Assembly (NCBI GenBank): GCA_023130975.1
Contig: JAGMAD010000001.1
Location: forward strand, 17,238 to 81,237
DNA: 64,000 nt
Direction: 5' to 3'
DNA from: Candidatus Parcubacteria bacterium
Lineage (GTDB): Bacteria > Patescibacteriota > Minisyncoccia > Minisyncoccales > JAGMDC01
The notes under the pieces are model-generated. The model made no database searches, was not told the origin of the DNA, and saw only the letters and a program-made list of their open reading frames with translations. The translations under genes and the position numbers were made by a program. This document shows positions 9,871-43,816 of the stretch, in pieces (the first letter of the stretch is position 1; each line of letters starts with the position of its first letter).

Positions 9871-10191
9871 ATGAGACGAGGAGAGAAAAGAAGAGAAAGA
9901 GAAATTTTGAAAACTCGGAGGAACATAAGGAGTTTTCTGAGAAAAATAGAGAGAAACCTTCAAAATGTCTCTTTGGTAGATGAAAAAAAAGGGTTAAAAA
10001 TCTCCAAAGAGGGAAATGGTTGGGCAGTCAAAAAAGCAGATATCGTTGATATCGAAATTGCTCCCCTAAAAAAAATAGGAAAAAGCTCTTTCCCTGTAAA
10101 GTTCACTTCGTTAGTAGACCTCGAAAAAGAGGTCAAAAGCGAAGAAGTAATAAATTTTGGAAAGTTCTTAGAAAAAGCAAAGATAATATAA
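9871..10191 (+). CDS. Hypothetical protein
   Basis: 106-aa ORF, purine-rich, with a basic N-terminus. No recognisable family. Confidence 0.4.
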   Translation: MRRGEKRREREILKTRRNIRSFLRKIERNLQNVSLVDEKKGLKISKEGNGWAVKKADIVDIEIAPLKKIGKSSFPVKFTSLVDLEKEVKSEEVINFGKFLEKAKII

Positions 10192-10210
10192 GGGATACAC
10201 TATGGTCCCT

Positions 10211-11332
10211 TTATTTTTTTAATATTTCTCTAAATGCCTTAATTACTTTTTCTAAATCTTCTTTATCAATAGAAAAAGTAGAAAGTTTGAAATGCTTGGT
10301 AAGGCCTGGTTTTATTCCTGTTATTCCTCGTTTCTTGAGTTCGTAATGCAAGAAAAATCTCCCTTTTGGATGTTTTAATGAAATTTTATAAAATGGCTCT
10401 GCTTTAAAAAATATTAAATCGTGTTTATGGGGTTTATCGCCTATTTGTTTCAGGCCTAATTTCTCCATTTCTTTTGAAAACCATTGGGCTTTTTTCTTTT
10501 CTTTTTCCCAATTTTTGACTCTTTCTAAAACAGCAGGGAATGAAGCCATTAAAGTAGCCATAGCTGTTCCTCTTAATTCAGAACCTAAAAATTCTATTTC
10601 TTGTTGAGGATAGATTTTTGATTTTCTCAAGATGATTTTTTCCCATTTTTTATCCATACCCAAGACGCCAATAGGTCCGGAGGAAGCCATTGATTTTTGG
10701 CCTGAACCAATTATGAAGTCAGCTCCAAGCTCCTTCATAGAAATTGGCATTCTTCCCACTGCATAAGCCCCATTGATTAAATACGGAACCTGGTATCTTT
10801 TGACAATCTCTCCCAATCTTTTGGCATCCGGTAAATTCCCATAATTTCCATCAGGATAAGTTAAAAGAACCAGGGCTGGTTTATGTTTTTTGATTAAGTC
10901 CTCATAATCCTCTACATTTATTTTATATTCCGGCTCTCCAGAATTTGGAACTTCAACAACTTTTAAGCCAGTCCTTTCAGCTGCTATAATGGTGGTATAA
11001 TGTCTGTTTCCATCAACAAGTATTGTCTTGCCTGGTTTTGCAATGGAATGTATTACATTAAATATGCCTTCCCTTACTCCAAGAGTAATTCTAACAATAT
11101 CTGCCCCCAAAAATTTTGGCATGGTTTCCTGAATAAATTCTTTAATTAAAGGCATTTCCATCAGTTCTAACCCAGGACTAAGATCATAGATAGAATATCC
11201 ATCACCAAACTCAACCAAGGCCTTTTCTGCCACCTTAGTTAATTCTCCTCCTTTCTGGATGGGATTTAAGTTAATCAATCCCTTATTCTTTCTTTCTAAT
11301 TTCTCAAATTTTTTGAGATTTTCATTAGTCAT
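10211..11332 (-). CDS. pscS: O-phospho-L-seryl-tRNA:Cys-tRNA synthase (SepCysS) homologue, cysteine-free
   Basis: Full-length similarity to archaeal SepCysS as recalled (INLNPIQKGG, GDGYS, VRITLGVREG, LLTYPDGNYGNLPDAK, NGAYAVGRMP, PLP-Lys motif GSGQKSMASSGP, TLMASFPAVLERVKNW, YELKKRGITGIKPGLTK). Overlaps sepS by 8 nt. Confidence 0.85.
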   Translation of the reverse strand: MTNENLKKFEKLERKNKGLINLNPIQKGGELTKVAEKALVEFGDGYSIYDLSPGLELMEMPLIKEFIQETMPKFLGADIVRITLGVREGIFNVIHSIAKPGKTILVDGNRHYTTIIAAERTGLKVVEVPNSGEPEYKINVEDYEDLIKKHKPALVLLTYPDGNYGNLPDAKRLGEIVKRYQVPYLINGAYAVGRMPISMKELGADFIIGSGQKSMASSGPIGVLGMDKKWEKIILRKSKIYPQQEIEFLGSELRGTAMATLMASFPAVLERVKNWEKEKKKAQWFSKEMEKLGLKQIGDKPHKHDLIFFKAEPFYKISLKHPKGRFFLHYELKKRGITGIKPGLTKHFKLSTFSIDKEDLEKVIKAFREILKK

Positions 11333-12752
11333 TTTTCTCTATTTCCATATCCACAAAAATAGGACCCCTAACATCAATCTTTTTGTTTTTTGAGGTGATA
11401 AATTTTTCCATTACTTTTTCTAATTCCAAATTAATTGACGGCAAAGTATCAGCTATTTTTATGGTATGCCTGCCAAAAGATTTCTTTTCAGCCAGCCAAG
11501 CGAACAAATTGGAAATCGCTTCTATGTAACTGTAGACCTTAATTCCTTTTTGAACCTCTTTTTGAAACTTTTTATCATTTTTATTTATTCCTAAAATATT
11601 TCCTTGATAAACATAGACAGTATTTAATCCGGCCGGTCCCAACAGTTTTTTATTGGTCTCGGGTTCGCTGATAAAAATTTTAACATCCTGATCCTTATAA
11701 ATTAGAAATTTTTGGGGACCAATTTCATCTTTGTATTTCAAAATGGCTTTTTCAATTTTTTTCTTTAATACTTTGCCTATTTTTGTCTTTGGCTGTTTTT
11801 TTAATTTAATATGAGAAGCAATTTCCTTATCATTAAAGACAGAAGAGGCATAAAATTGGGGATAAACCAATTTCCGAATATCAGTTATATTTTTTTTAAG
11901 CATGGCGAGCCGTTCCACCCCAAAGCCAACATTGAAAACCGGGTAGGGGATATTGTAATTAGACAAACTTATCGGAGAGTATAGCCCGCCATCTCCAACC
12001 TCTATGTTTTTATCTTTCTGTTTCACAAAAACTTCAAATTCTGTTTCCGGGGCGTAATAATTTGATGTCGCTGTTTTGGTTTCAAAGATAACTTTTGGAA
12101 AACCCATTTTTGAGAGGATTTTTTTTGTTAGGATTTTGCCTTCATTTAAATCAAGCTTTTTATCAACAACCACCAAAGAAGCGCTTAGGGACTCGTAAAG
12201 ATGCAAAGAATCTTGCTGCTGTTCTCTTCTAAATTTACTTCCGATAGAGAAAAGCTTTAAGGGAAGAATGTTTTTCTTGATGAGAGAGTTAATGGTCAGA
12301 AACCAAGCAGCAGTCATATGGGAACGGAGAACAGATTTTGTTGGTATTGGCTTTAATTTTTTGAGTTTTGGGAATAAAGTTAAAATCTCTGTTGCTTTTT
12401 CTGCTTTTATTTTTAACTTTTTGACCATTTCTTCAATCAAGTTATCAGCCTCTATCGTCCCTTTTTTAAATTCACGGAAGATTTTTTGAAGCTCTTTAAC
12501 ATCAATATCGGCAATTTTTTTTATCTCTCCAATGGTTTTTTTGGATATCCCAAGTTCGGGGATAGGAAGACCAGCTAAATAAAAACTCCTATTTAAAATA
12601 AGAGGAGCTTCGGCTCCATATTGCCTGTAAACATCTTTTTCCTGAATAATTGAAGGGTTTATTATTTCTTCAAACCCATAATCAAGAAAAACTTTTCTAA
12701 ATTTTTCAGTTAGCTCAATAACAGAATGTGGCTTACCTTTTTTTCTTTTCAT
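11325..12752 (-). CDS. sepS: O-phosphoserine--tRNA ligase (SepRS)
   Basis: Near-collinear with M. jannaschii SepRS as recalled (FYLAGLP, FKKGTIEADNLIEEM, LRSHMTAAWFLT, LPLKLFSIGSKFRREQ, YYAPETEFEV, GLYSPISL, NVGFGVERLAM, VYPQFY, KKLLGPAGLN..VYVY.GNI, IDVRGPIF). Start moved to the ATG at 12752 because the tracked extension runs through the tRNA-Cys gene. Confidence 0.9.
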   Translation of the reverse strand: MKRKKGKPHSVIELTEKFRKVFLDYGFEEIINPSIIQEKDVYRQYGAEAPLILNRSFYLAGLPIPELGISKKTIGEIKKIADIDVKELQKIFREFKKGTIEADNLIEEMVKKLKIKAEKATEILTLFPKLKKLKPIPTKSVLRSHMTAAWFLTINSLIKKNILPLKLFSIGSKFRREQQQDSLHLYESLSASLVVVDKKLDLNEGKILTKKILSKMGFPKVIFETKTATSNYYAPETEFEVFVKQKDKNIEVGDGGLYSPISLSNYNIPYPVFNVGFGVERLAMLKKNITDIRKLVYPQFYASSVFNDKEIASHIKLKKQPKTKIGKVLKKKIEKAILKYKDEIGPQKFLIYKDQDVKIFISEPETNKKLLGPAGLNTVYVYQGNILGINKNDKKFQKEVQKGIKVYSYIEAISNLFAWLAEKKSFGRHTIKIADTLPSINLELEKVMEKFITSKNKKIDVRGPIFVDMEIEKND

Positions 12753-12753
12753 A

Positions 12754-12824
12754 AGCCGGGAGGGAGAGTCGAACTCCCTTGAACCGGTCTGCAGCCGGCC
12801 GCATATCCGTTCTGCCATCCCGAC
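12754..12824 (-). tRNA. tRNA-Cys (anticodon GCA)
   Basis: Hand-folded cloverleaf. Acceptor GUCGGGA/UCCCGGC, U8, D stem GCA(G)/(A)UGC, anticodon arm GCCGG-CUGCAGA-CCGGU, 4-nt variable loop, T arm GGGAG-UUCGACU-CUCCC, discriminator U73. CCA is not encoded. Confidence 0.85.
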
Positions 12825-12864
12825 CTGTTTTTTTTATTATATCTAATATAAGCAATTCTTTCAA

Positions 12865-12961
12865 CCCCCATACCATAACAAGGATAGGCGAATTCGCAAA
12901 GCGAATTCGCTAACCCGCCAAACCCTTTGGGTTTGGCGGAAATCCTTGTTTGGTGTGGGGG
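12865..12961. mobile_element. GC-rich palindromic MITE-like element, family 1, intergenic copy (97 nt)
   Basis: Termini CCCCCATACCATAA / TTTGGTGTGGGGG. Extended stem ACAAGGA/TCCTTGT. Two inner hairpins (gcgaattcgc x2; ccgccaaaccc-ttt-gggtttggcgg). Flanked by direct tcaa/tcaa. Confidence 0.6.
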
Positions 12962-13010
12962 TCAACCCCGAAACCTTGTCAAGACAGGACAATTTTGATA
13001 ATATGAACTA

Positions 13011-29352: not shown

Positions 29353-30039
29353 TTATTTGACAATTTTCCACTCAATTTTTGATTCTTTATCCGCAAACTC
29401 CAACCATTGGCCATTTTTGTCAATGACATACCACTTTCTTTTTGTGTCTGACCAAACCATTGGGTCGCCTCTATAAAATGGCTTTTTAACAACCTCTTTT
29501 GGCTTTAATCGGTCTAATTCCAACCATTTTTTAAATACTGTTTCAATGGCATAATCCAGATTTCTAGATTTCGCCCATTCAGCGACCGTAGAAATGGCTT
29601 TTTTTGCTTTTTCCATTGAACCAGCAAGTTCTAAAAGCTGCTTTGCCGGCTTGGTAAACCGGGAATAAATAATCTTTCTTTTCTTAGCATTTTGTTTGAG
29701 CTCGCCCAAACTAAGCCCTTTGGTTTGAAAATAATGAGTAACAATCTGACGGATAGCAGTTTCTTGTTTTAATTTCTCATAATATTTAATCTTGCCTTTT
29801 TTCAGATATTCTTCAATTTTATCAGCGATACTTTTCCCCACGCCTTGGATTTCTTTCAAGCCCTTAACATCTCTTTTCTTGTAAATATCAACGATATCCT
29901 CTTTTAAATTTTCCAGAGCCAAAGCGGCTTTATGATAGGCCTGCGGTTTAAAAGACACTCCTTTTATTTTCAACAGTTCTTCTATTTCGTATAATATTTT
30001 AGCGATTTTTTGATTGGTCACTTTATTGATATTTTTCAA
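29353..30039 (-). CDS. Helix-hairpin-helix protein resembling the N-terminal part of family X polymerases
   Basis: NQKIAKILYEIEELLKIKG..FKPQAYHKAALALE...LKEIQGVGKSIADKIEEYL. No palm/NTase domain. Confidence 0.6.
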   Translation of the reverse strand: MKNINKVTNQKIAKILYEIEELLKIKGVSFKPQAYHKAALALENLKEDIVDIYKKRDVKGLKEIQGVGKSIADKIEEYLKKGKIKYYEKLKQETAIRQIVTHYFQTKGLSLGELKQNAKKRKIIYSRFTKPAKQLLELAGSMEKAKKAISTVAEWAKSRNLDYAIETVFKKWLELDRLKPKEVVKKPFYRGDPMVWSDTKRKWYVIDKNGQWLEFADKESKIEWKIVK

Positions 30040-30622
30040 CTTTGAATTTGTAAATTATTATTTTTTCTGTTTGAGGGTTGATATTGGCTTTTTGACAGGC
30101 AATAGAGATTTGTTTTTCTGAAGTATCCACTCCGTCTAAGTCAGGCAAAAGCAGTCCTGATTTAAAATGAGTCCTTGGCGCAGGTTCAAAAATAACATCA
30201 GAACCAGAAGAAAAGGACTGGGATTTTACAAGGATGCCGTATTTTTTCGGATCTAATTCATTTATGCTCTTTATTAATTCTGGTTTATTCAAAATATACA
30301 CAGTATAAGATAGTTCGGGCAACTCCTGTTTCTGAATAGGGGAGAAGCGATAATCTTCAGTGGCCGCAACAATAGCATTATGAATAATTTCCTGGGCAAT
30401 ATTTTCTTTTGTCGGCAAATAAGTGCCAATACATCCACGTAAAACTCGCTTTCGCTCGTCACGTGGCGCGCCCCGCAAATTCTCATCTTTTTCAATAGTC
30501 ACAAATGTGCCAGCTTTTCGGGTCAGAAACTCTTCTGGCAAATTTTTAGACGGAGAAATCGTCTTTCTTTCTTTTATGTAATTTTCCACCGCCTTTTTGG
30601 CAAGTGAGATATATTGATTCAT
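30023..30622 (-). CDS. AMMECR1 domain protein (AmmeMemoRadiSam system protein A)
   Basis: GTFVTI...LRGCIGTY core. Adjacent to the Memo-like and radical SAM partners. Confidence 0.8.
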   Translation of the reverse strand: MNQYISLAKKAVENYIKERKTISPSKNLPEEFLTRKAGTFVTIEKDENLRGAPRDERKRVLRGCIGTYLPTKENIAQEIIHNAIVAATEDYRFSPIQKQELPELSYTVYILNKPELIKSINELDPKKYGILVKSQSFSSGSDVIFEPAPRTHFKSGLLLPDLDGVDTSEKQISIACQKANINPQTEKIIIYKFKVEKYQ

Positions 30623-30731
30623 AAAAAGTGTATTAAATGCCTGTAAATTCTTGCCTCTGGTTTTATTCTACAATGATTTTAGCAATAAAAAAAGAGGAGA
30701 ATTGTCTCCCCATATGTCTTCTATGTGTCTT

Positions 30732-31025
30732 CTATATGTCTTCTAAAGAATATAATCTATAGTTCCTGGAAAGATACCAACGATCTAGCAAAAAGAGAGT
30801 GGTGCCTAAGTAAACGAAAATCGATCCTGTCACATATAAACAAATTGTCAATCCTCTTGTCAATCCTCCAAAATCCAAAGTCCATGCTACAGCTATGAAT
30901 ATCAATCCAGTTACCATGTTAGTTACATGGTATTTTACTCTCTCTCCAATACTCATTTCCATCTTTTTTCCAGTTATCATGCTGGTTACATAATGTTTTA
31001 CTTTCTTTCCAATACTTATTTCCAT
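30732..31025 (-). CDS. Small membrane protein with internal tandem repeat
   Basis: ATG 31025 with SD aggagg. MEISIGKKVKHYVTSMITGKK / MEMSIGERVKYHVTNMVTGLIF duplicated ~21-aa unit, then two TM helices. Tracked N-terminal extension rejected. Confidence 0.5.
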   Translation of the reverse strand: MEISIGKKVKHYVTSMITGKKMEMSIGERVKYHVTNMVTGLIFIAVAWTLDFGGLTRGLTICLYVTGSIFVYLGTTLFLLDRWYLSRNYRLYSLEDI

Positions 31026-31187
31026 CTTTTTATCACCTCCTATTCTGTTTAAAACAATGCTACACGTTACGTTCCGGATAGGATTTGAATCTGCGTCTTC
31101 GGCTCGAGAAGCTAAAATACTAAACTGAACTATCACCACCGGAGCATTATTAAAGATAGCATTTTTTACGATTTGTGTCAAGCGAAA

Positions 31188-31874
31188 TTATCGTAATTTG
31201 AAATTTACGACGAGATAACCGACGCCGAAAGGGTATTCGTATGATAAAATTTCCGGCTGCCAATTTAAACCCGAGGCCTGTAAAATTCCTAAAAGAAAAG
31301 AAAAAGAGCGCAGGCCGCATTCGCCGGCCTCTGGAAAATATTCATCTAACTTCAAAAAATTTTTAATATCTTTTTTCTTTAGATATTCAATCAATGCCTT
31401 GTCAAATTTTGGACCATCAGGATGAAGACCATAAGGACCATCTTCTTTTAAGCAGTGAGACATATCACCAGAAGCGATCAGGGCATATCTCTTTTCTTTT
31501 TCCAATTTATTATGAACTACCCTGCCCTTCAGGGCAGGGTATCCCTCCGGGCAAGTTCTTTCGACGGCTTTCATCCCGCCGCCGAAATAAAACTTTTTTC
31601 CTCGTTGATAATAAAAATCAGGAGTTTTATCAGGAATAAATAATTGCCGGCTTGGAATACGTTGCTTAGGATTTAAGAAATAAAGCGGAACGTTAAAACC
31701 CCAATCAGGATGAGGAGAGGAAATAATAATATTGTTAGGATTAGATTCCTTTAATTTTTTTCCTAAAAACTCCAAATTTTCAATTGTTTTTTTAACTTTC
31801 TCTCTATCCTCTAGCGAGCCAACTTCAGGCAAAAGCAGGGGAGGATGAGGAGAAAAGCAAGCAAAAGAAATCAT
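31188..31874 (-). CDS. Memo/LigB-superfamily protein (AmmeMemoRadiSam system protein B-like)
   Basis: FSPHPPLLLPE, IASGDMSHCL, AGECGLRSF. Located between the AMMECR1 and radical SAM partners. Confidence 0.65.
   Translation of the reverse strand: MISFACFSPHPPLLLPEVGSLEDREKVKKTIENLEFLGKKLKESNPNNIIISSPHPDWGFNVPLYFLNPKQRIPSRQLFIPDKTPDFYYQRGKKFYFGGGMKAVERTCPEGYPALKGRVVHNKLEKEKRYALIASGDMSHCLKEDGPYGLHPDGPKFDKALIEYLKKKDIKNFLKLDEYFPEAGECGLRSFSFLLGILQASGLNWQPEILSYEYPFGVGYLVVNFKLR
31512..31592 (+). repeat. GC-rich hairpin repeat, family 2, copy b (~81 nt) inside the Memo-like gene
   Basis: atgaactaccctgcccttcagggcagggtatccctccgggcaagttctttcgacggctttcatcccgccgccgaaataaaa. Translated antisense as FGGGMKAVERTCPEGYPALKGRVVH. 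Confidence 0.7.
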
Positions 31875-31889
31875 AAAAATCTCTAATTT

Positions 31890-32981
31890 TTAATTTAAAA
31901 TTAAATTTAAATCTTCTTCGCATTTAGCGCATTTGCCGTTTTTGTCAAAACGTTTGATGGTATAGCCGAGCCGCTCAATTGCCAAAGTCCCGCATTTTGG
32001 ACAATAAGTGTTTTCGCTTTCTAAACCCGGCACATTACCAGTATAAACATATTTTAAGCCAGCTTTTTTACCAATTTCAAAAGCCATTTTTAATGTCTCA
32101 ACCGAAGTATCAGGTAAGTGCTGTAATTTCCAAGAAATTGTACCAGAAAATTGAGAAATATGCCAGGGCGTTTCAATACCTAACTCGTTTTTAATAAAAT
32201 TAGCGATATTTTCAAACATTTCTTTAGAATCAGTTAAGGTAGGAATGACTAAAGTTGTTACTTCTAGCCAAATGTTTTTTCCTTTCAAACGCTTTAGAGT
32301 ATCTAAAACTGGCTGTAATAGTCCGCCGCAGTATTTTATGTAAAACTCATCAGAAAAACCTTTTAGGTCAATATTCGCGGCGTCAAGATAAGGAGAAATT
32401 AAATCAAAAAGTTCTTTTGACCAAAATCCATTGCTAACCCAGACATTTTTTATTCCTTGCTTTTTAGCTAATTTCATTGTATCTAAAGCATATTCAGAAA
32501 AAATGGTAGGTGAAGTATAGGTATAAGCAATAGAAGGTAAATTATTCTCTTTGGCAATTTTAACAATTTCTTCTGGCGATAAATCTTCTCCTTCAATCTT
32601 TCCAGTCAATTGAGGCATTTGAGATATATCATAATTTTGGCAATTTGCACATCTAAAATTACATCCTACAGTGGCGATAGATAATGACTGAGTACCGGGT
32701 AAAAAGTGAAATAAAGGTTTTTTTTCAATAGGATCAATATTACAGGCAATAGCTTTGCCATAATTCAGGGCATAAAGTTTTCCATCAATATTTTCTCTCA
32801 CACCGCAAATCCCTCTCTTTCCTTGTTCAATAACACAATAATGAGCGCAATTTCGGCACTGAACAATTTTGTTCTTTAGTTTTTTGTAAAGATATGCTTC
32901 TTTCACCCCCACACCATAATAAGCACCGGCACCTTTGGTGCCAAAAGACGAAGTATGTGTTTGTTTGGTGTGGGGGTTCAT
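31890..32981 (-). CDS. AmmeMemoRadiSam system radical SAM enzyme
   Basis: N-terminal Cys cluster (CRNCAHYC..GICGVR), radical SAM CNFRCANCQN, C-terminal CPKC..CAKC ribbon. Confidence 0.85.
   Translation of the reverse strand: MNPHTKQTHTSSFGTKGAGAYYGVGVKEAYLYKKLKNKIVQCRNCAHYCVIEQGKRGICGVRENIDGKLYALNYGKAIACNIDPIEKKPLFHFLPGTQSLSIATVGCNFRCANCQNYDISQMPQLTGKIEGEDLSPEEIVKIAKENNLPSIAYTYTSPTIFSEYALDTMKLAKKQGIKNVWVSNGFWSKELFDLISPYLDAANIDLKGFSDEFYIKYCGGLLQPVLDTLKRLKGKNIWLEVTTLVIPTLTDSKEMFENIANFIKNELGIETPWHISQFSGTISWKLQHLPDTSVETLKMAFEIGKKAGLKYVYTGNVPGLESENTYCPKCGTLAIERLGYTIKRFDKNGKCAKCEEDLNLILN
32906..32976. mobile_element. Family-1 MITE-like element (71 nt) inserted just after the radical SAM start codon
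   Basis: CCCCCACACCATAA...TTTGGTGTGGGGG, flanked by direct ttca/ttca (32902-32905, 32977-32980). Confidence 0.65.
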
Positions 32982-42268: not shown

Positions 42269-43816
42269 ATGGAAAAAGTTGATAGATTAAGAAAAAAATA
42301 TCCGAGATTTGTTTATGAAAAATATTTTTATCAAATCTTTAAAAATGATTTAAAGATTTTTTTTGATTTTAGGATAGCTCCTGACATTAGATTTAGACCA
42401 ACAATAATTGTAAAAAATATTGACAAACAAAATTTATCAATGATCAGTGATAAATTATTAGATAATCTTGTTTTTCATTTGGGTTTAATGGAAATTCCCA
42501 GTTATTGGAAAACTACTTGCTCGCCAGAAATTGAAATTAGAGCCGGCTATTTAAATAAAGAACAAATTAAATGGTGGAAAGATTTAATTATCAATGGAAT
42601 GGGCCAATTCTTTTATGAAAATAGGATTGATTTCAGAGAGTCAAGTTTTCTAAAAATTATTTCAAATGAGCAAAAAAGCGGGCGAAGACGGACTTCGCCT
42701 GCTTCGTTCAATTTGGGCGAAGTCCGTCCTCGCTTTGTCTCGCAAAAAAATAGATTTTTAATCCCAATGGGAGATGGCAAGGATTCAATTGTTACTTTAG
42801 AGCTGCTAAAAAGAAAAAAGTTAGAGGTTAATTGTTTTATTGTTAATCCTTTTAAAGAGCATTTTAAGATTTTGAAAATCGCAGGAATTAAAAACCCCGT
42901 AATTGTAGAACGGAAAGTTGATCCAACTTTATTAGCATTGAATCGAAAAGGATTTTTAAACGGACATACGCCGATAACTGCTTTAATTTCCAACTTAGCA
43001 GTTTTTTGCGGAGTTTTATTTGGTTATGGAAACGTAGTAATGTCCTGCGAGAAAAGCGCTAATGAAGGTAATATAAAATACTTGCCCCCACACCATAATG
43101 GAGACATGCCGCTTTCAGCGGCGAAATTAGCAAGGCCAGCCCCCATTTGGTGTGGGAGTAAAGGAAAAATCATTAATCATCAATGGTCAAAAAGTTTTGA
43201 ATTTGAGGAAAAATTCCGATATTATTCTAAGAAATATTTAACAAAAGAAGTAGAATATTTTAGTTTTTTGCGTCCTTTATATGAAATTCAAATAGCAAGA
43301 TTATTCTCTAAGCTTACAAAATATTTTTCGGTTTTCCTTAGTTGTAATGAGGCATATAAAACTGCTTCTGGAACCAAAAAACCAACTGGCAAATGGTGCG
43401 GGAAATGCTCAAAATGCTTGTTTATTTGGACAATTTTATATCCTTTTGTAAAAGAAAAAGAGCTGATTAAAATTTTCAAAAAAAATCTTTTTAAAGATAA
43501 GAATCTAATTCCAATAATGAAAGAACTAATAGGGGATAGTAAATGCAAGCCACTTGAATGTGTGGGCACAAAAAAAGAAAGCTTAATTGCTTTTTACCTA
43601 TCATACAAAAAATCCATAGGTGACACCTATGGCAATTTCTATGGCAATAGTGATAATTTATCGGCTTTGTTGAAATACTTTCAAAATAAAGTTTTACCGA
43701 ATTACTCAAAATTAAAATTAGAAAATGATTCAAAAAGGATATTAAATTCATGGAATAAGCAAAATAATCTTCCTAAAAAATTTGACAAAATTTTACGAAA
43801 AGCATATTATAAATGA
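42269..43816 (+). CDS. PP-loop-like / Cys-cluster protein in the dcw cluster; candidate UDP-MurNAc-L-Ala-L-Glu epimerase (MurL-like)
   Basis: FLIPMGDGKDSIVTLELL resembles an SGGxDS-type ATP pyrophosphatase loop. GKWCGKCSKCLF is a QueC-like Cys cluster. Sits between mraY and murD. The family assignment is an inference. Confidence 0.4.
   Translation: MEKVDRLRKKYPRFVYEKYFYQIFKNDLKIFFDFRIAPDIRFRPTIIVKNIDKQNLSMISDKLLDNLVFHLGLMEIPSYWKTTCSPEIEIRAGYLNKEQIKWWKDLIINGMGQFFYENRIDFRESSFLKIISNEQKSGRRRTSPASFNLGEVRPRFVSQKNRFLIPMGDGKDSIVTLELLKRKKLEVNCFIVNPFKEHFKILKIAGIKNPVIVERKVDPTLLALNRKGFLNGHTPITALISNLAVFCGVLFGYGNVVMSCEKSANEGNIKYLPPHHNGDMPLSAAKLARPAPIWCGSKGKIINHQWSKSFEFEEKFRYYSKKYLTKEVEYFSFLRPLYEIQIARLFSKLTKYFSVFLSCNEAYKTASGTKKPTGKWCGKCSKCLFIWTILYPFVKEKELIKIFKKNLFKDKNLIPIMKELIGDSKCKPLECVGTKKESLIAFYLSYKKSIGDTYGNFYGNSDNLSALLKYFQNKVLPNYSKLKLENDSKRILNSWNKQNNLPKKFDKILRKAYYK
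42678..42743. repeat. GC-rich 66-nt hairpin insert (family 3) inside the MurL-like ORF
   Basis: Arms gcgaagacggacttcgcc (42682-42699) and ggcgaagtccgtcctcgc (42716-42733), 17/18 complementary. Flanked by A runs. Translated as GRRRTSPASFNLGEVRPRFVSQ. Confidence 0.65.
43085..43158. mobile_element. Family-1 MITE-like element (74 nt, degenerate right end) inside the MurL-like ORF
   Basis: CCCCCACACCATAA...ATTTGGTGTGGGAG. Inner hairpin gccgc-tttca-gcggc. Translated as PPHHNGDMPLSAAKLARPAPIWCGS. Confidence 0.55.

What the first reader, a model, noticed from the sequence alone, without database searches (positions are those of the whole stretch)
10211..12824. Archaeal-type indirect Cys-tRNA pathway (tRNA-Cys, SepRS, SepCysS) as one compact operon in a bacterial context, with both enzymes Cys-free
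Seen: on the minus strand the order is tRNA-Cys(GCA), 1 nt, sepS (476 aa), 8-nt overlap, then pscS. Neither enzyme contains a single Cys over a combined ~850 residues. SepRS has S, K and L where the M. jannaschii protein, as recalled, has Cys (DRCFYLAG becomes NRSFYLAG, IDRCFRREQ becomes IGSKFRREQ, SASCVVV becomes SASLVVV). Neighbouring proteins (RecR, DnaJ, radical SAM enzyme, MurL-like) do use Cys. The flanking genes (dnaB, recR, gtrA, dnaX) are bacterial.
Established: SepRS/SepCysS is the methanogen route to Cys-tRNA. It has been reported sporadically in uncultured bacteria.
Inference: the pathway was acquired horizontally from archaea. The machinery that makes Cys-tRNA may have been purged of Cys codons so that it can be translated when Cys-tRNA is absent (bootstrapping).
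Basis: partly seen in the sequence, partly recalled or inferred. Interest (0 to 1): 0.7.

Follow-up and report, generated by a model that had tools for sequence, protein, structure and literature searches.

The report
Cysteine-free SepRS–SepCysS operon in Parcubacteria
This small bacterium carries the "archaeal" two-step route that builds cysteine directly on its tRNA; that route is already known in this bacterial group, but here the second enzyme has lost all three cysteines thought to deliver the sulfur, so it must obtain sulfur some other way.

Summary
On the minus strand lie a σ70-like promoter, tRNA-Cys(GCA), sepS 1 nt later (475 aa) and pscS after an 8-nt overlap (373 aa). Neither enzyme contains a Cys. 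Both pass NCBIfam equivalog cut-offs and NCBI already names them (MCK4453755.1, MCK4453754.1; Ca. Parcubacteria).

The operon is conserved, syntenic, host-like in codon usage and under purifying selection (dN/dS about 0.13). It is neither decay nor contamination.

This kind of system is published. Mukai et al. 2017 and 2022 described Parcubacterial SepRS–SepCysS(–tRNACys) operons. They showed that a Parcubacterial SepCysS lacking two of the three conserved Cys makes Cys-tRNACys with sulfide.

The missing residues include the whole catalytic Cys triad (A. fulgidus C39/C42/C247 become Y49/S52/S251). PLP and phosphate-binding residues are kept. This Y-S-S form marks a monophyletic clade in CPR bacteria and DPANN archaea, seen before as one unassayed archaeal sequence.

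The SepRS "Cys losses" are at variable positions. Zero Cys in both proteins is only modestly unusual (joint P about 0.01).

"Bootstrapping" remains untested speculation, and whether the genome has cysS could not be checked.

Verdict: new member of a known kind, with a mechanistic loose end.

The parts
12836..12864 (-). σ70-like promoter, TTGAAA-17 nt-TATAAT, about 11 nt upstream of the tRNA 5' end
   Evidence: 11 of 12 consensus matches, the best site in the region. This is a consensus match only; function is inferred.
12754..12824 (-). tRNA-Cys, anticodon GCA, with G37 and discriminator U73; no encoded CCA
   Evidence: Rfam RF00005, 46.9 bits. Orthologous tRNAs in L005, L007, L014, L015 and L020 show paired changes in the stems.
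11325..12752 (-). sepS, O-phosphoseryl-tRNA synthetase, 475 aa, 0 Cys. The ATG lies 1 nt after the tRNA discriminator base.
   Evidence: TIGR00470 scores 429.5 bits against a cut-off of 380.65. It aligns to M. maripaludis, M. jannaschii and A. fulgidus SepRS structures at E about 1e-99 to 1e-102. The H-M-T, S-A-S, FRREQ and N-x-G-F-G-V-E-R-L motifs are kept. Ile389 corresponds to A. fulgidus Ile444.
10211..11332 (-). pscS, a SepCysS-family PLP enzyme, 373 aa, 0 Cys. Its start overlaps the sepS stop by 8 nt. The catalytic Cys triad is replaced by Y49, S52 and S251.
   Evidence: TIGR02539 scores 475.6 bits against a cut-off of 365.25. E = 1.1e-128 to A. fulgidus SepCysS 2E7I, with the residue-by-residue alignment. 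R87, H111, Y112 and K213 are kept.
10190..10211 (.). Hairpin directly after the pscS stop codon, between the convergent pscS and a 106-aa ORF; a possible shared terminator
   Evidence: stem of 7 pairs, called on the + strand with a T-run. Function on the - strand is inferred only.

Best explanation
This is a working tRNA-dependent cysteine pathway, vertically inherited in a Parcubacteria (CPR) lineage and transcribed as one unit from a promoter just upstream of the tRNA.

Step 1. SepRS charges the co-encoded tRNA-Cys (GCA, G37, U73) with O-phosphoserine.

Step 2. The SepCysS-family PLP enzyme binds Sep-tRNA. The phosphate is held by R87, H111 and Y112, and the Schiff base forms at K213. The enzyme eliminates phosphate to give a PLP-bound dehydroalanyl-tRNA.

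Step 3. The enzyme has no cysteine, so it cannot carry a persulfide or a [3Fe-4S] cluster. The sulfur must therefore come from a nucleophile that is not bound to this enzyme. Free HS- is the most likely source. A persulfide or thiocarboxylate on another protein is the alternative. The product is Cys-tRNACys.

Shown here: gene identities, the residue substitutions, conservation, synteny, purifying selection and linkage to the tRNA. Inferred: the activities, the sulfur source, the co-transcription, and a (near-)leaderless sepS mRNA after 3' processing of the tRNA.
For: - Both proteins exceed the NCBIfam equivalog cut-offs.
- SepRS keeps the class II motifs and the H-M-T, S-A-S and Asn positions, which from my own recall contact the Sep phosphate. 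These are conserved across 120 homologues.
- SepCysS keeps the equivalents of A. fulgidus Arg79, His103, Tyr104 and Lys209. The phosphate-binding role of Arg79, His103 and Tyr104 is stated in PMC2330236.
- Only about 5 positions besides the triad distinguish the Y-S-x clade from 95 canonical sequences.
- dN/dS is 0.12-0.13 for both genes against relatives.
- Synteny with a 75-82% identical relative is the same, and the exact locus was assembled independently from at least 4 samples.
- GC and codon usage match the host.
- A Y-S-S pscS is linked to a tRNA-Cys gene within 1 kb in every CPR-type locus found. It partners with two different canonical-looking SepRS clades.
- The spacing is tight: 1 nt, an 8-nt overlap, and in L020 gaps of 5 nt and 8 nt.
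- Precedent: the Ca. Parcubacteria DG_74_2 SepCysS lacks two of the three Cys and is colourless. It converted 95-99% of Sep-tRNACys to Cys-tRNACys with 40 mM Na2S and was active in E. coli (PMC5424206).
- No conserved extra gene, such as a sulfur carrier, is shared between the different neighbourhoods.
- UGY codons occupy the RecR C4 zinc-finger motif, so the cell needs real Cys-tRNA.
Against: - No enzyme lacking all three Cys has been assayed. The assayed DG_74_2 enzyme still has the Cys39 equivalent.
- The three Cys are implicated in persulfide and Fe-S chemistry in canonical SepCysS (PMC5424206). From my own recall of Liu et al. 2012, mutants of these Cys are inactive in vivo in M. jannaschii.
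- The 40 mM sulfide used in vitro is not physiological.
- One archaeal Y-S-S SepCysS ('GB archaeon No. 4') is paired with a SepRS carrying altered active-site motifs (HAT, NLS, GLGRI). The function of the clade may therefore not be uniform.
- Whether the genome also has CysRS, which would make this operon dispensable for decoding, could not be tested. There is no cysS in the 64-kb window, but that is uninformative.
Confidence: 0.72

Rival explanations
1. Adaptive Cys avoidance. The operon is the only source of Cys and Cys-tRNA, and selection has removed every Cys codon, including the catalytic triad. The pathway could then restart when no Cys-tRNA is available.
For: - Both proteins have 0 Cys. 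The joint probability is about 0.01 under an overdispersed model.
- 12 of 24 Y-S-x clade SepCysS have 0 Cys. Their non-catalytic Cys average 0.75, against 1.9 in canonical SepCysS.
- About half of the 20 closest SepRS relatives have 0 Cys.
- Depletion of the cognate amino acid in biosynthetic enzymes is a reported general trend (own knowledge).
Against: - Relatives with the same Y-S-S site carry 3-4 Cys (P0006-8, P0028, P0033).
- SepRS is Cys-poor in all lineages, and none of its Cys positions is conserved.
- DnaB (463 aa) and two other long proteins in the window are also Cys-free.
- Met is not depleted, so there is no general sulfur sparing.
- Canonical SepCysS proteins carry the three conserved Cys.
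- Daughter cells inherit both enzyme and Cys-tRNA, so a cold start is not an obvious selective problem (inference).
Confidence: 0.15
2. Neofunctionalisation. The Cys-less SepCysS homologue no longer makes Cys. It might stop at dehydroalanyl- or Ser-tRNA, or add a different nucleophile such as selenide. Alternatively the pair serves a role other than decoding UGY, while a canonical CysRS supplies Cys-tRNA.
For: - All three residues implicated in sulfur transfer are replaced by residues that are themselves conserved: Y49 in 100% and S52 in 88% of the clade.
- An archaeal member pairs with a SepRS whose active-site motifs are altered.
- The presence of cysS in this genome is unknown.
Against: - The phosphate- and PLP-binding residues, and almost every other position, are canonical.
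- The linked tRNA is a normal tRNA-Cys(GCA) with U73.
- The partner SepRS clades look canonical.
- A related Cys-deficient Parcubacterial enzyme does make Cys-tRNA (PMC5424206).
- UGY codons sit at zinc-ligand positions.
Confidence: 0.1
3. Non-functional relic, or archaeal DNA mis-assembled or mis-binned into a bacterial contig.
For: The pathway is mainly archaeal. Some close SepCysS relatives are labelled as archaeal MAGs.
Against: - The ORFs are intact and dN/dS is about 0.13.
- The operon sits mid-contig between dnaB/recR and gtrA/dnaX, in several independent assemblies and in a divergent relative.
- GC3 and codon usage are like those of the host genes.
Confidence: 0.02

Closest known systems
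Ca. Parcubacteria DG_74_2 SepRS–SepCysS operon (KPJ56532/KPJ56533; Mukai et al. 2017, PMC5424206)
   Same: It is a CPR bacterial operon of SepRS and SepCysS, and its SepCysS is deficient in the conserved Cys. Both enzymes were shown to be active: Sep charging, then Sep-to-Cys conversion with sulfide. The window SepRS is 45% identical to the DG_74_2 SepRS.
   Different: - The DG_74_2 SepCysS is a separate lineage (C-Y-H: GDGYSVCDIWYSG / EFLGHYQKG). It keeps the Cys39 equivalent, and the loss is independent in the NJ tree. The window enzyme is Y-S-S with no Cys at all.
- The DG_74_2-type SepRS lacks the Ile444 (m1G37) motif. The related L020 locus pairs that SepRS type with an A37 tRNA.
- The window SepRS keeps Ile (I389) and pairs with a G37 tRNA.
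'GB archaeon No. 4' SepCysS (Guaymas Basin; Data Set S1 of PMC5424206)
   Same: It has the same Y-S-S active-site pattern (DGYATYDISPG / EFIGSESRG). It belongs to the same clade as P0028 and P0033 (Aenigmatarchaeota). The authors flagged it as one of two exceptions lacking the persulfide Cys.
   Different: - It is archaeal and not in an operon with the kind of tRNA and SepRS seen here.
- Its SepRS partner has altered motifs (HAT, NLS, GLGRI).
- It was never assayed.
- It carries other Cys (GSCHKS), so it is not Cys-free.
Canonical archaeal SepRS/SepCysS (A. fulgidus 2DU3 and 2E7J; M. jannaschii transsulfursome 5X6B/5X6C)
   Same: It has the same two-step chemistry, fold and PLP and phosphate-binding residues. 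The SepCysS aligns at E = 1e-128 and the SepRS at about 1e-99.
   Different: - The canonical SepCysS has the three conserved Cys (persulfide and [3Fe-4S]).
- Class I methanogens add SepCysE; none is seen here.
- The window SepRS lacks about 40-55 N-terminal residues.
SepSecS and O-phosphoserine sulfhydrylase / O-acetylserine sulfhydrylase (mechanistic analogues only; own knowledge)
   Same: These are PLP enzymes that form an aminoacrylate from a phosphoserine or acetylserine substrate. They then add a small-molecule chalcogen nucleophile (selenophosphate or HS-) without any enzyme-bound persulfide. This is the mechanism proposed here. Pfam's SepSecS model also hits the window protein (1.3e-39).
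   Different: They are different families or subfamilies. SepSecS acts on tRNASec as a tetramer. The sulfhydrylases act on free amino acids. No membership is claimed.

Membership tests
SepRS (O-phosphoserine--tRNA ligase, TIGR00470) | Whole-protein score above the curated equivalog cut-off | tested here: met
   429.5 bits against 380.65, covering model positions 40-531 of 533.
SepRS (O-phosphoserine--tRNA ligase, TIGR00470) | PheRS-α-like class II catalytic core with motif 2 (FRREQ) and motif 3 (GFGVERL) | tested here: met
   Pfam tRNA-synt_2d at 7e-44. The motifs are present and conserved in homologues.
SepRS (O-phosphoserine--tRNA ligase, TIGR00470) | Residues contacting the Sep phosphate (A. 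fulgidus Thr188, Ser231, Ser233, Asn325; the roles are recalled from Fukunaga & Yokoyama 2007 and were not re-read) | tested here: met
   H-M-T, S-A-S and N(VGFG) are all conserved. The A. fulgidus numbering was derived from the alignment in Data Set S1.
SepRS (O-phosphoserine--tRNA ligase, TIGR00470) | C-terminal anticodon-binding domain, including the Ile444 (m1G37) motif | tested here: met
   The alignment to M. maripaludis SepRS runs to the C-terminus. I389 in GNILGINKN aligns with A. fulgidus Ile444. The Pfam SepRS_C hit alone is below its cut-off (21.9 against 26.9).
SepRS (O-phosphoserine--tRNA ligase, TIGR00470) | Charges tRNA-Cys with O-phosphoserine | not testable with these tools
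   The only evidence is a homologue at 45% identity (DG_74_2) that was assayed in PMC5424206.
SepCysS (Sep-tRNA:Cys-tRNA synthase, TIGR02539) | Whole-protein score above the curated equivalog cut-off; fold type I PLP enzyme | tested here: met
   475.6 bits against 365.25. E = 1.1e-128 over the full length to 2E7I.
SepCysS (Sep-tRNA:Cys-tRNA synthase, TIGR02539) | PLP lysine (A. fulgidus Lys209) and Sep-phosphate site (Arg79, His103, Tyr104) | tested here: met
   K213, R87, H111 and Y112. The phosphate-site roles are stated in PMC2330236.
SepCysS (Sep-tRNA:Cys-tRNA synthase, TIGR02539) | Three conserved Cys (A. fulgidus Cys39, Cys42, Cys247) implicated in persulfide and [3Fe-4S] sulfur transfer | tested here: not met
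   They are replaced by Y49, S52 and S251, and the protein has 0 Cys. I therefore file it as a homologous member of the family with a non-canonical sulfur-transfer site, not as a canonical SepCysS. PMC5424206 shows that activity can survive the loss of two of the three.
SepCysS (Sep-tRNA:Cys-tRNA synthase, TIGR02539) | Genetic linkage to sepS and/or tRNA-Cys | tested here: met
   There is an 8-nt overlap with sepS, and the tRNA-Cys heads the operon. The same linkage is seen in L005, L014 and L020, and tRNA linkage in L007, L015 and L016.
SepCysS (Sep-tRNA:Cys-tRNA synthase, TIGR02539) | Converts Sep-tRNACys to Cys-tRNACys | not testable with these tools
   No Y-S-S enzyme has been assayed in the papers I read.
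Transsulfursome (SepRS·SepCysE·SepCysS) | SepCysE or SepCysSn adaptor encoded nearby | tested here: inconclusive
   No conserved small ORF is shared between the window and L005. The 106-aa and 73-aa downstream ORFs are unrelated to each other and have no significant Pfam hit. No SepCysE profile was available for a direct search.

The most novel reading that the evidence does not exclude
The Y-S-S clade may be a distinct, completely thiol-free class of tRNA-dependent cysteine synthase. On this reading it has been selected, together with its Cys-free SepRS partner, to be self-starting. The only route to Cys and Cys-tRNA in these reduced CPR and DPANN cells would then need no pre-existing cysteine, persulfide or Fe-S cluster, only phosphoserine, PLP and environmental sulfide.
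Probability: 0.15. Interest if true: 0.65.

Novelty: new member of a known kind. Interest (0 to 1): 0.35.

Why it matters
If the fully Cys-less enzyme is active, the conserved Cys triad is not needed for the core SepCysS chemistry. Persulfide and [3Fe-4S] relay would then be an add-on for sulfur delivery. That bears on the unresolved SepCysS mechanism.

It would also show how ultra-small CPR and DPANN organisms in sulfidic habitats make cysteine with a minimal kit of three genes.

A small, Cys-free and oxygen-insensitive SepCysS, with a compact SepRS and tRNA set, could also be useful for phosphoserine and cysteine genetic-code engineering.

As a genomic finding it mostly confirms and extends published surveys.

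Tried and rejected
- Searching for cysS: a tblastn of E. coli CysRS against the window and all fetched loci found nothing. This covers only a fragment of the genome, so it says nothing about the whole genome. No tool allowed me to query the rest of the MAG.
- The exhaustive search of 50%-identity representatives merged the whole clade I SepCysS into one representative (P0265). It could not size the Cys-less clade.
- A downstream small ORF as a SepCysSn-like adaptor: the 106-aa ORF (9871..10191) has no Pfam hit and no similarity to the 73-aa ORF at the same place in L005. Rejected.
- The cut 261-aa ORF upstream of the tRNA in L007 as a SepRS fragment: it is the C-terminus of an RNA polymerase subunit. 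Rejected.
- SepRS 'Cys-to-S/K/L' substitutions as a signal: rejected, because those columns are variable family-wide.
- General sulfur sparing: rejected, because Met is not depleted.
- Recent HGT or contamination: rejected.
- A literature search for the M. jannaschii Cys64/67/272 mutagenesis paper failed. PMC3285321 is not held and one search returned irrelevant papers. That point rests on my own knowledge and on the summary in PMC5424206.
Full report
**1. What is in the sequence**

All features lie on the minus strand.

- ARAGORN calls a tRNA-Cys(GCA) at 12825..12753. The Rfam tRNA model places it at 12824..12754 with a perfect 7-bp acceptor stem, G37 and discriminator U73 (46.9 bits). No CCA is encoded.
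- One base after U73 is the ATG (12752) of a 475-aa ORF ending at 11325. The mechanical 497-aa ORF that starts at 12818 runs through the tRNA and is spurious. NCBI's own annotation uses the 475-aa form (MCK4453755.1).
- The stop of this ORF overlaps the start of a 373-aa ORF (11332..10211) by 8 nt, ATGACTAA.
- The best σ70-like site in the region is TTGAAA-17-TATAAT at 12864..12836, with 11 of 12 matches. It sits about 11 nt upstream of the tRNA.
- A hairpin follows the second stop codon.

**2. Identity of the two proteins**

- The first protein scores 429.5 bits on TIGR00470 (sepS; cut-off 380.65). The second scores 475.6 bits on TIGR02539 (SepCysS; cut-off 365.25).
- They align over their full lengths to solved SepRS structures (E about 1e-99 to 1e-102) and to A. 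fulgidus SepCysS 2E7I (E = 1.1e-128).
- Both exact sequences are already in NCBI. They are named O-phosphoserine--tRNA ligase and O-phospho-L-seryl-tRNA:Cys-tRNA synthase, from a 'Candidatus Parcubacteria bacterium'.

**3. Cys-free status**

- Both proteins have 0 Cys.
- In 51 other ORFs of the window, Cys is 0.88% of residues. A naive binomial gives 5.7e-4 for 0 in 848.
- Cys is strongly overdispersed among proteins. Eight of the 51 ORFs, and 3 of the 25 ORFs of at least 340 aa, also lack it, including DnaB at 463 aa.
- A beta-binomial fit gives 0.081 x 0.118, about 0.01 jointly. That is nominally unusual but not striking for a feature chosen post hoc.
- Met is not depleted.

**4. SepRS**

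The first column is C43/I30/S18/V13/L9, the second K86/R33, and the third L43/I26/M19/V15/C10.
- SepRS proteins carry only 0-6 Cys in general. No essential Cys has been lost.
- The H-M-T, S-A-S, FRREQ and N-x-G-F-G-V-E-R-L motifs are intact.
- I derived A. fulgidus numbering from the alignment in Data Set S1 of PMC5424206. On that numbering the window enzyme keeps Ile (I389) at the Ile444 position, which the paper links to recognition of m1G37. The co-encoded tRNA has G37.
- In the related locus L020 the SepRS has Ser at that position and its tRNA-Cys has A37.
- This matches the statement in PMC8762117 that some newly found bacterial SepRS clades keep the motif and are coupled to tRNACys(G37).

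**5. SepCysS: the real anomaly**

- In the alignment to A. fulgidus SepCysS, the three conserved cysteines Cys39, Cys42 and Cys247 are replaced by Tyr49, Ser52 and Ser251.
- Lys209 (the PLP lysine) and Arg79, His103 and Tyr104 (the Sep phosphate site, per PMC2330236) are kept as K213, R87, H111 and Y112.
- Among the 120 best homologues there are four active-site patterns:
  - 95 have C-C-C.
  - 19 have Y-S/A-S/G.
  - 5 have Y-S-C, including Altiarchaeales.
  - 1 has C-Y-H.
- In a neighbour-joining tree the Y-S-[S/C/G] proteins form one clade. The three Y-A-S sequences sit apart, and the C-Y-H protein is an independent loss.
- Apart from the triad, only I25, I67 and F248 separate the clade from canonical sequences. 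This is an otherwise ordinary SepCysS.
- Twelve of the 24 clade members have no Cys. Others with the same Y-S-S site have 3-4 Cys.

**6. Not decay, not contamination, not a recent transfer**

- dN/dS against relatives is 0.12-0.13 for both genes.
- The identical locus was assembled from at least four samples.
- A relative with 82% (SepCysS) and 75% (SepRS) identity has the same order: dnaX-gtrA-…-tRNACys-sepS-pscS-…-dnaB-recR.
- GC, GC3 and codon usage match neighbouring housekeeping genes.

**7. Context in other lineages**

- A scan of GTDB species representatives found seven loci.
- In Ca. Parcubacteria RS_17_37 (L020), and in a 4-kb contig labelled Woesearchaeota (L014), an 81-83% identical Y-S-S SepCysS sits next to a different SepRS clade. 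That SepRS is only 42-44% identical to the window's and resembles the DG_74_2 type.
- The gene order in L020 is sepS-5 nt-tRNACys(A37)-8 nt-pscS.
- In other CPR contigs (L007/L016, L015) the Y-S-S gene has a tRNA-Cys 120-860 nt upstream and no adjacent sepS.
- The archaeal members (L008, L017, and the Y-S-C locus L010) have neither close by.
- No other gene is shared among these neighbourhoods, so no dedicated sulfur carrier is evident.

**8. Literature**

- Mukai et al. 2017 (PMC5424206) reported SepRS and SepCysS in Ca. Parcubacteria and Chloroflexi.
- They noted that 'with only two exceptions' all SepCysS keep the Cys involved in persulfide formation. [quoted passage not shown]
- They showed that the DG_74_2 Parcubacteria SepCysS, lacking two of the three Cys, is colourless. 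It converts 95-99% of Sep-tRNACys to Cys-tRNACys and is active in E. coli. The assay used 40 mM sodium sulfide.
- Their Data Set S1 shows that DG_74_2 is the C-Y-H type. The second exception, 'GB archaeon No. 4', is the same Y-S-S type as the window protein. It was not assayed, and its SepRS partner has altered motifs (HAT, NLS, GLGRI).
- Mukai et al. [quoted passage not shown] That paper does not discuss Cys loss.

**9. Interpretation**

- The best-supported reading is a functional, vertically inherited indirect Cys-tRNA pathway.
- Its second enzyme cannot carry a persulfide or an Fe-S cluster. It must therefore receive sulfur from a nucleophile not bound to it, most simply HS-. This is analogous to SepSecS with selenophosphate, or to sulfhydrylases with sulfide (analogy from my own knowledge).
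- The gene identities, substitutions, conservation and linkage are shown. The activity and the sulfur source are inferred, with partial experimental precedent.
- A change of product cannot be excluded, but it is disfavoured. The substrate site is canonical, the tRNA-Cys is normal, and UGY codons occupy the RecR C4 zinc-finger motif.

**10. What could not be settled**

- Whether the genome has cysS or cysteine biosynthesis genes is unknown. Only the window and ±10-kb flanks were accessible, and no cysS lies in them.
- No assay exists for a fully Cys-less enzyme.

**11. Verdict**

The system is a new member of a published kind. The one point worth following up is that a coherent CPR/DPANN clade of SepCysS has lost the entire catalytic Cys triad. 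Interest is moderate to low (0.35).

Noticed in passing
window 12866-12966 (intergenic, between gtrA on + and the tRNA-Cys operon on -): This is a GC-rich, highly structured element in an AT-rich genome. An outer stem (12877-12885 / 12942-12950, extended) encloses two perfect hairpins: CCGCCAAACCC/GGGTTTGGCGG (12915-12939) and GCGAATTCGC/GCGAATTCGC (12888-12910). The RNA fold of 12826-13010(-) is -74.9 kcal/mol, z = -7.85, with 0 of 200 shuffles as stable. It is unique in the window and has no Rfam match. Its function is unknown; it could be an insulator or bidirectional terminator, a protein-binding palindrome, or a remnant of an inserted element.
   Followed up: partly
window 12750-12756; L005 8566-8575; L020 5917-6006: A tRNA-Cys abuts the next ORF with almost no spacer: 1 nt to the sepS ATG in the window, 3 nt in L005, and 8 nt to pscS in L020. 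There is no room for a Shine-Dalgarno sequence. After 3' processing of the tRNA the downstream mRNA would be leaderless or nearly so. This suggests that tRNA maturation and enzyme translation are coupled.
   Followed up: partly
L005 7034-8422 (-): A 462-aa protein has strong TFIIB repeat (2.1e-34) and TFIIB zinc-ribbon (1.1e-14) hits, so it resembles an archaeal TFB. It is encoded in an otherwise bacterial Parcubacteria contig (dnaX, gtrA, dnaB, recR, EF-Ts, S2, RF-1), directly beside the tRNA-Cys–sepS–pscS operon. It is absent from the window. It may be a passenger of the same archaeal-derived island.
   Followed up: partly
L020 4399-7113 and L014 435-3867: Nearly the same Y-S-S SepCysS (81-83% identity) is partnered with a different SepRS clade (42-44% identity to the window's). 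The gene order also differs (sepS-tRNA-pscS), and the tRNA has A37 instead of G37. SepRS and SepCysS therefore have separate histories within CPR.
   Followed up: yes
Data Set S1 of PMC5424206, 'GB archaeon No. 4' SepRS: The archaeal organism with the first reported Y-S-S SepCysS has a SepRS with changed active-site motifs: LISHATT in place of LRSHMT, NLS in place of SAS, and GLGRI in place of GVERL. The paper's main text does not discuss this. It might indicate altered amino-acid specificity in the archaeal branch of the system.
   Followed up: no
window 212 of pscS (codon at about 10697-10699): The residue just before the PLP lysine is Gln (GSGQKS) instead of the usual His (GSGHKS). This is true in the window protein and its five closest relatives (P0002-5, P0009). 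The same His-to-Gln change occurs in one canonical C-C-C protein (P0068). Its significance is unknown.
   Followed up: no
window 30023-32981 (-): There is a cluster of a radical SAM protein (13 Cys) and a LigB/Memo-like protein, with an adjacent small ORF. It resembles an AmmeMemoRadiSam system; the family name is from my own knowledge. It is unrelated to the finding.
   Followed up: no
window 42269-43816 (+): A 515-aa ORF with 11 Cys has no Pfam match at E <= 1e-5.
   Followed up: no
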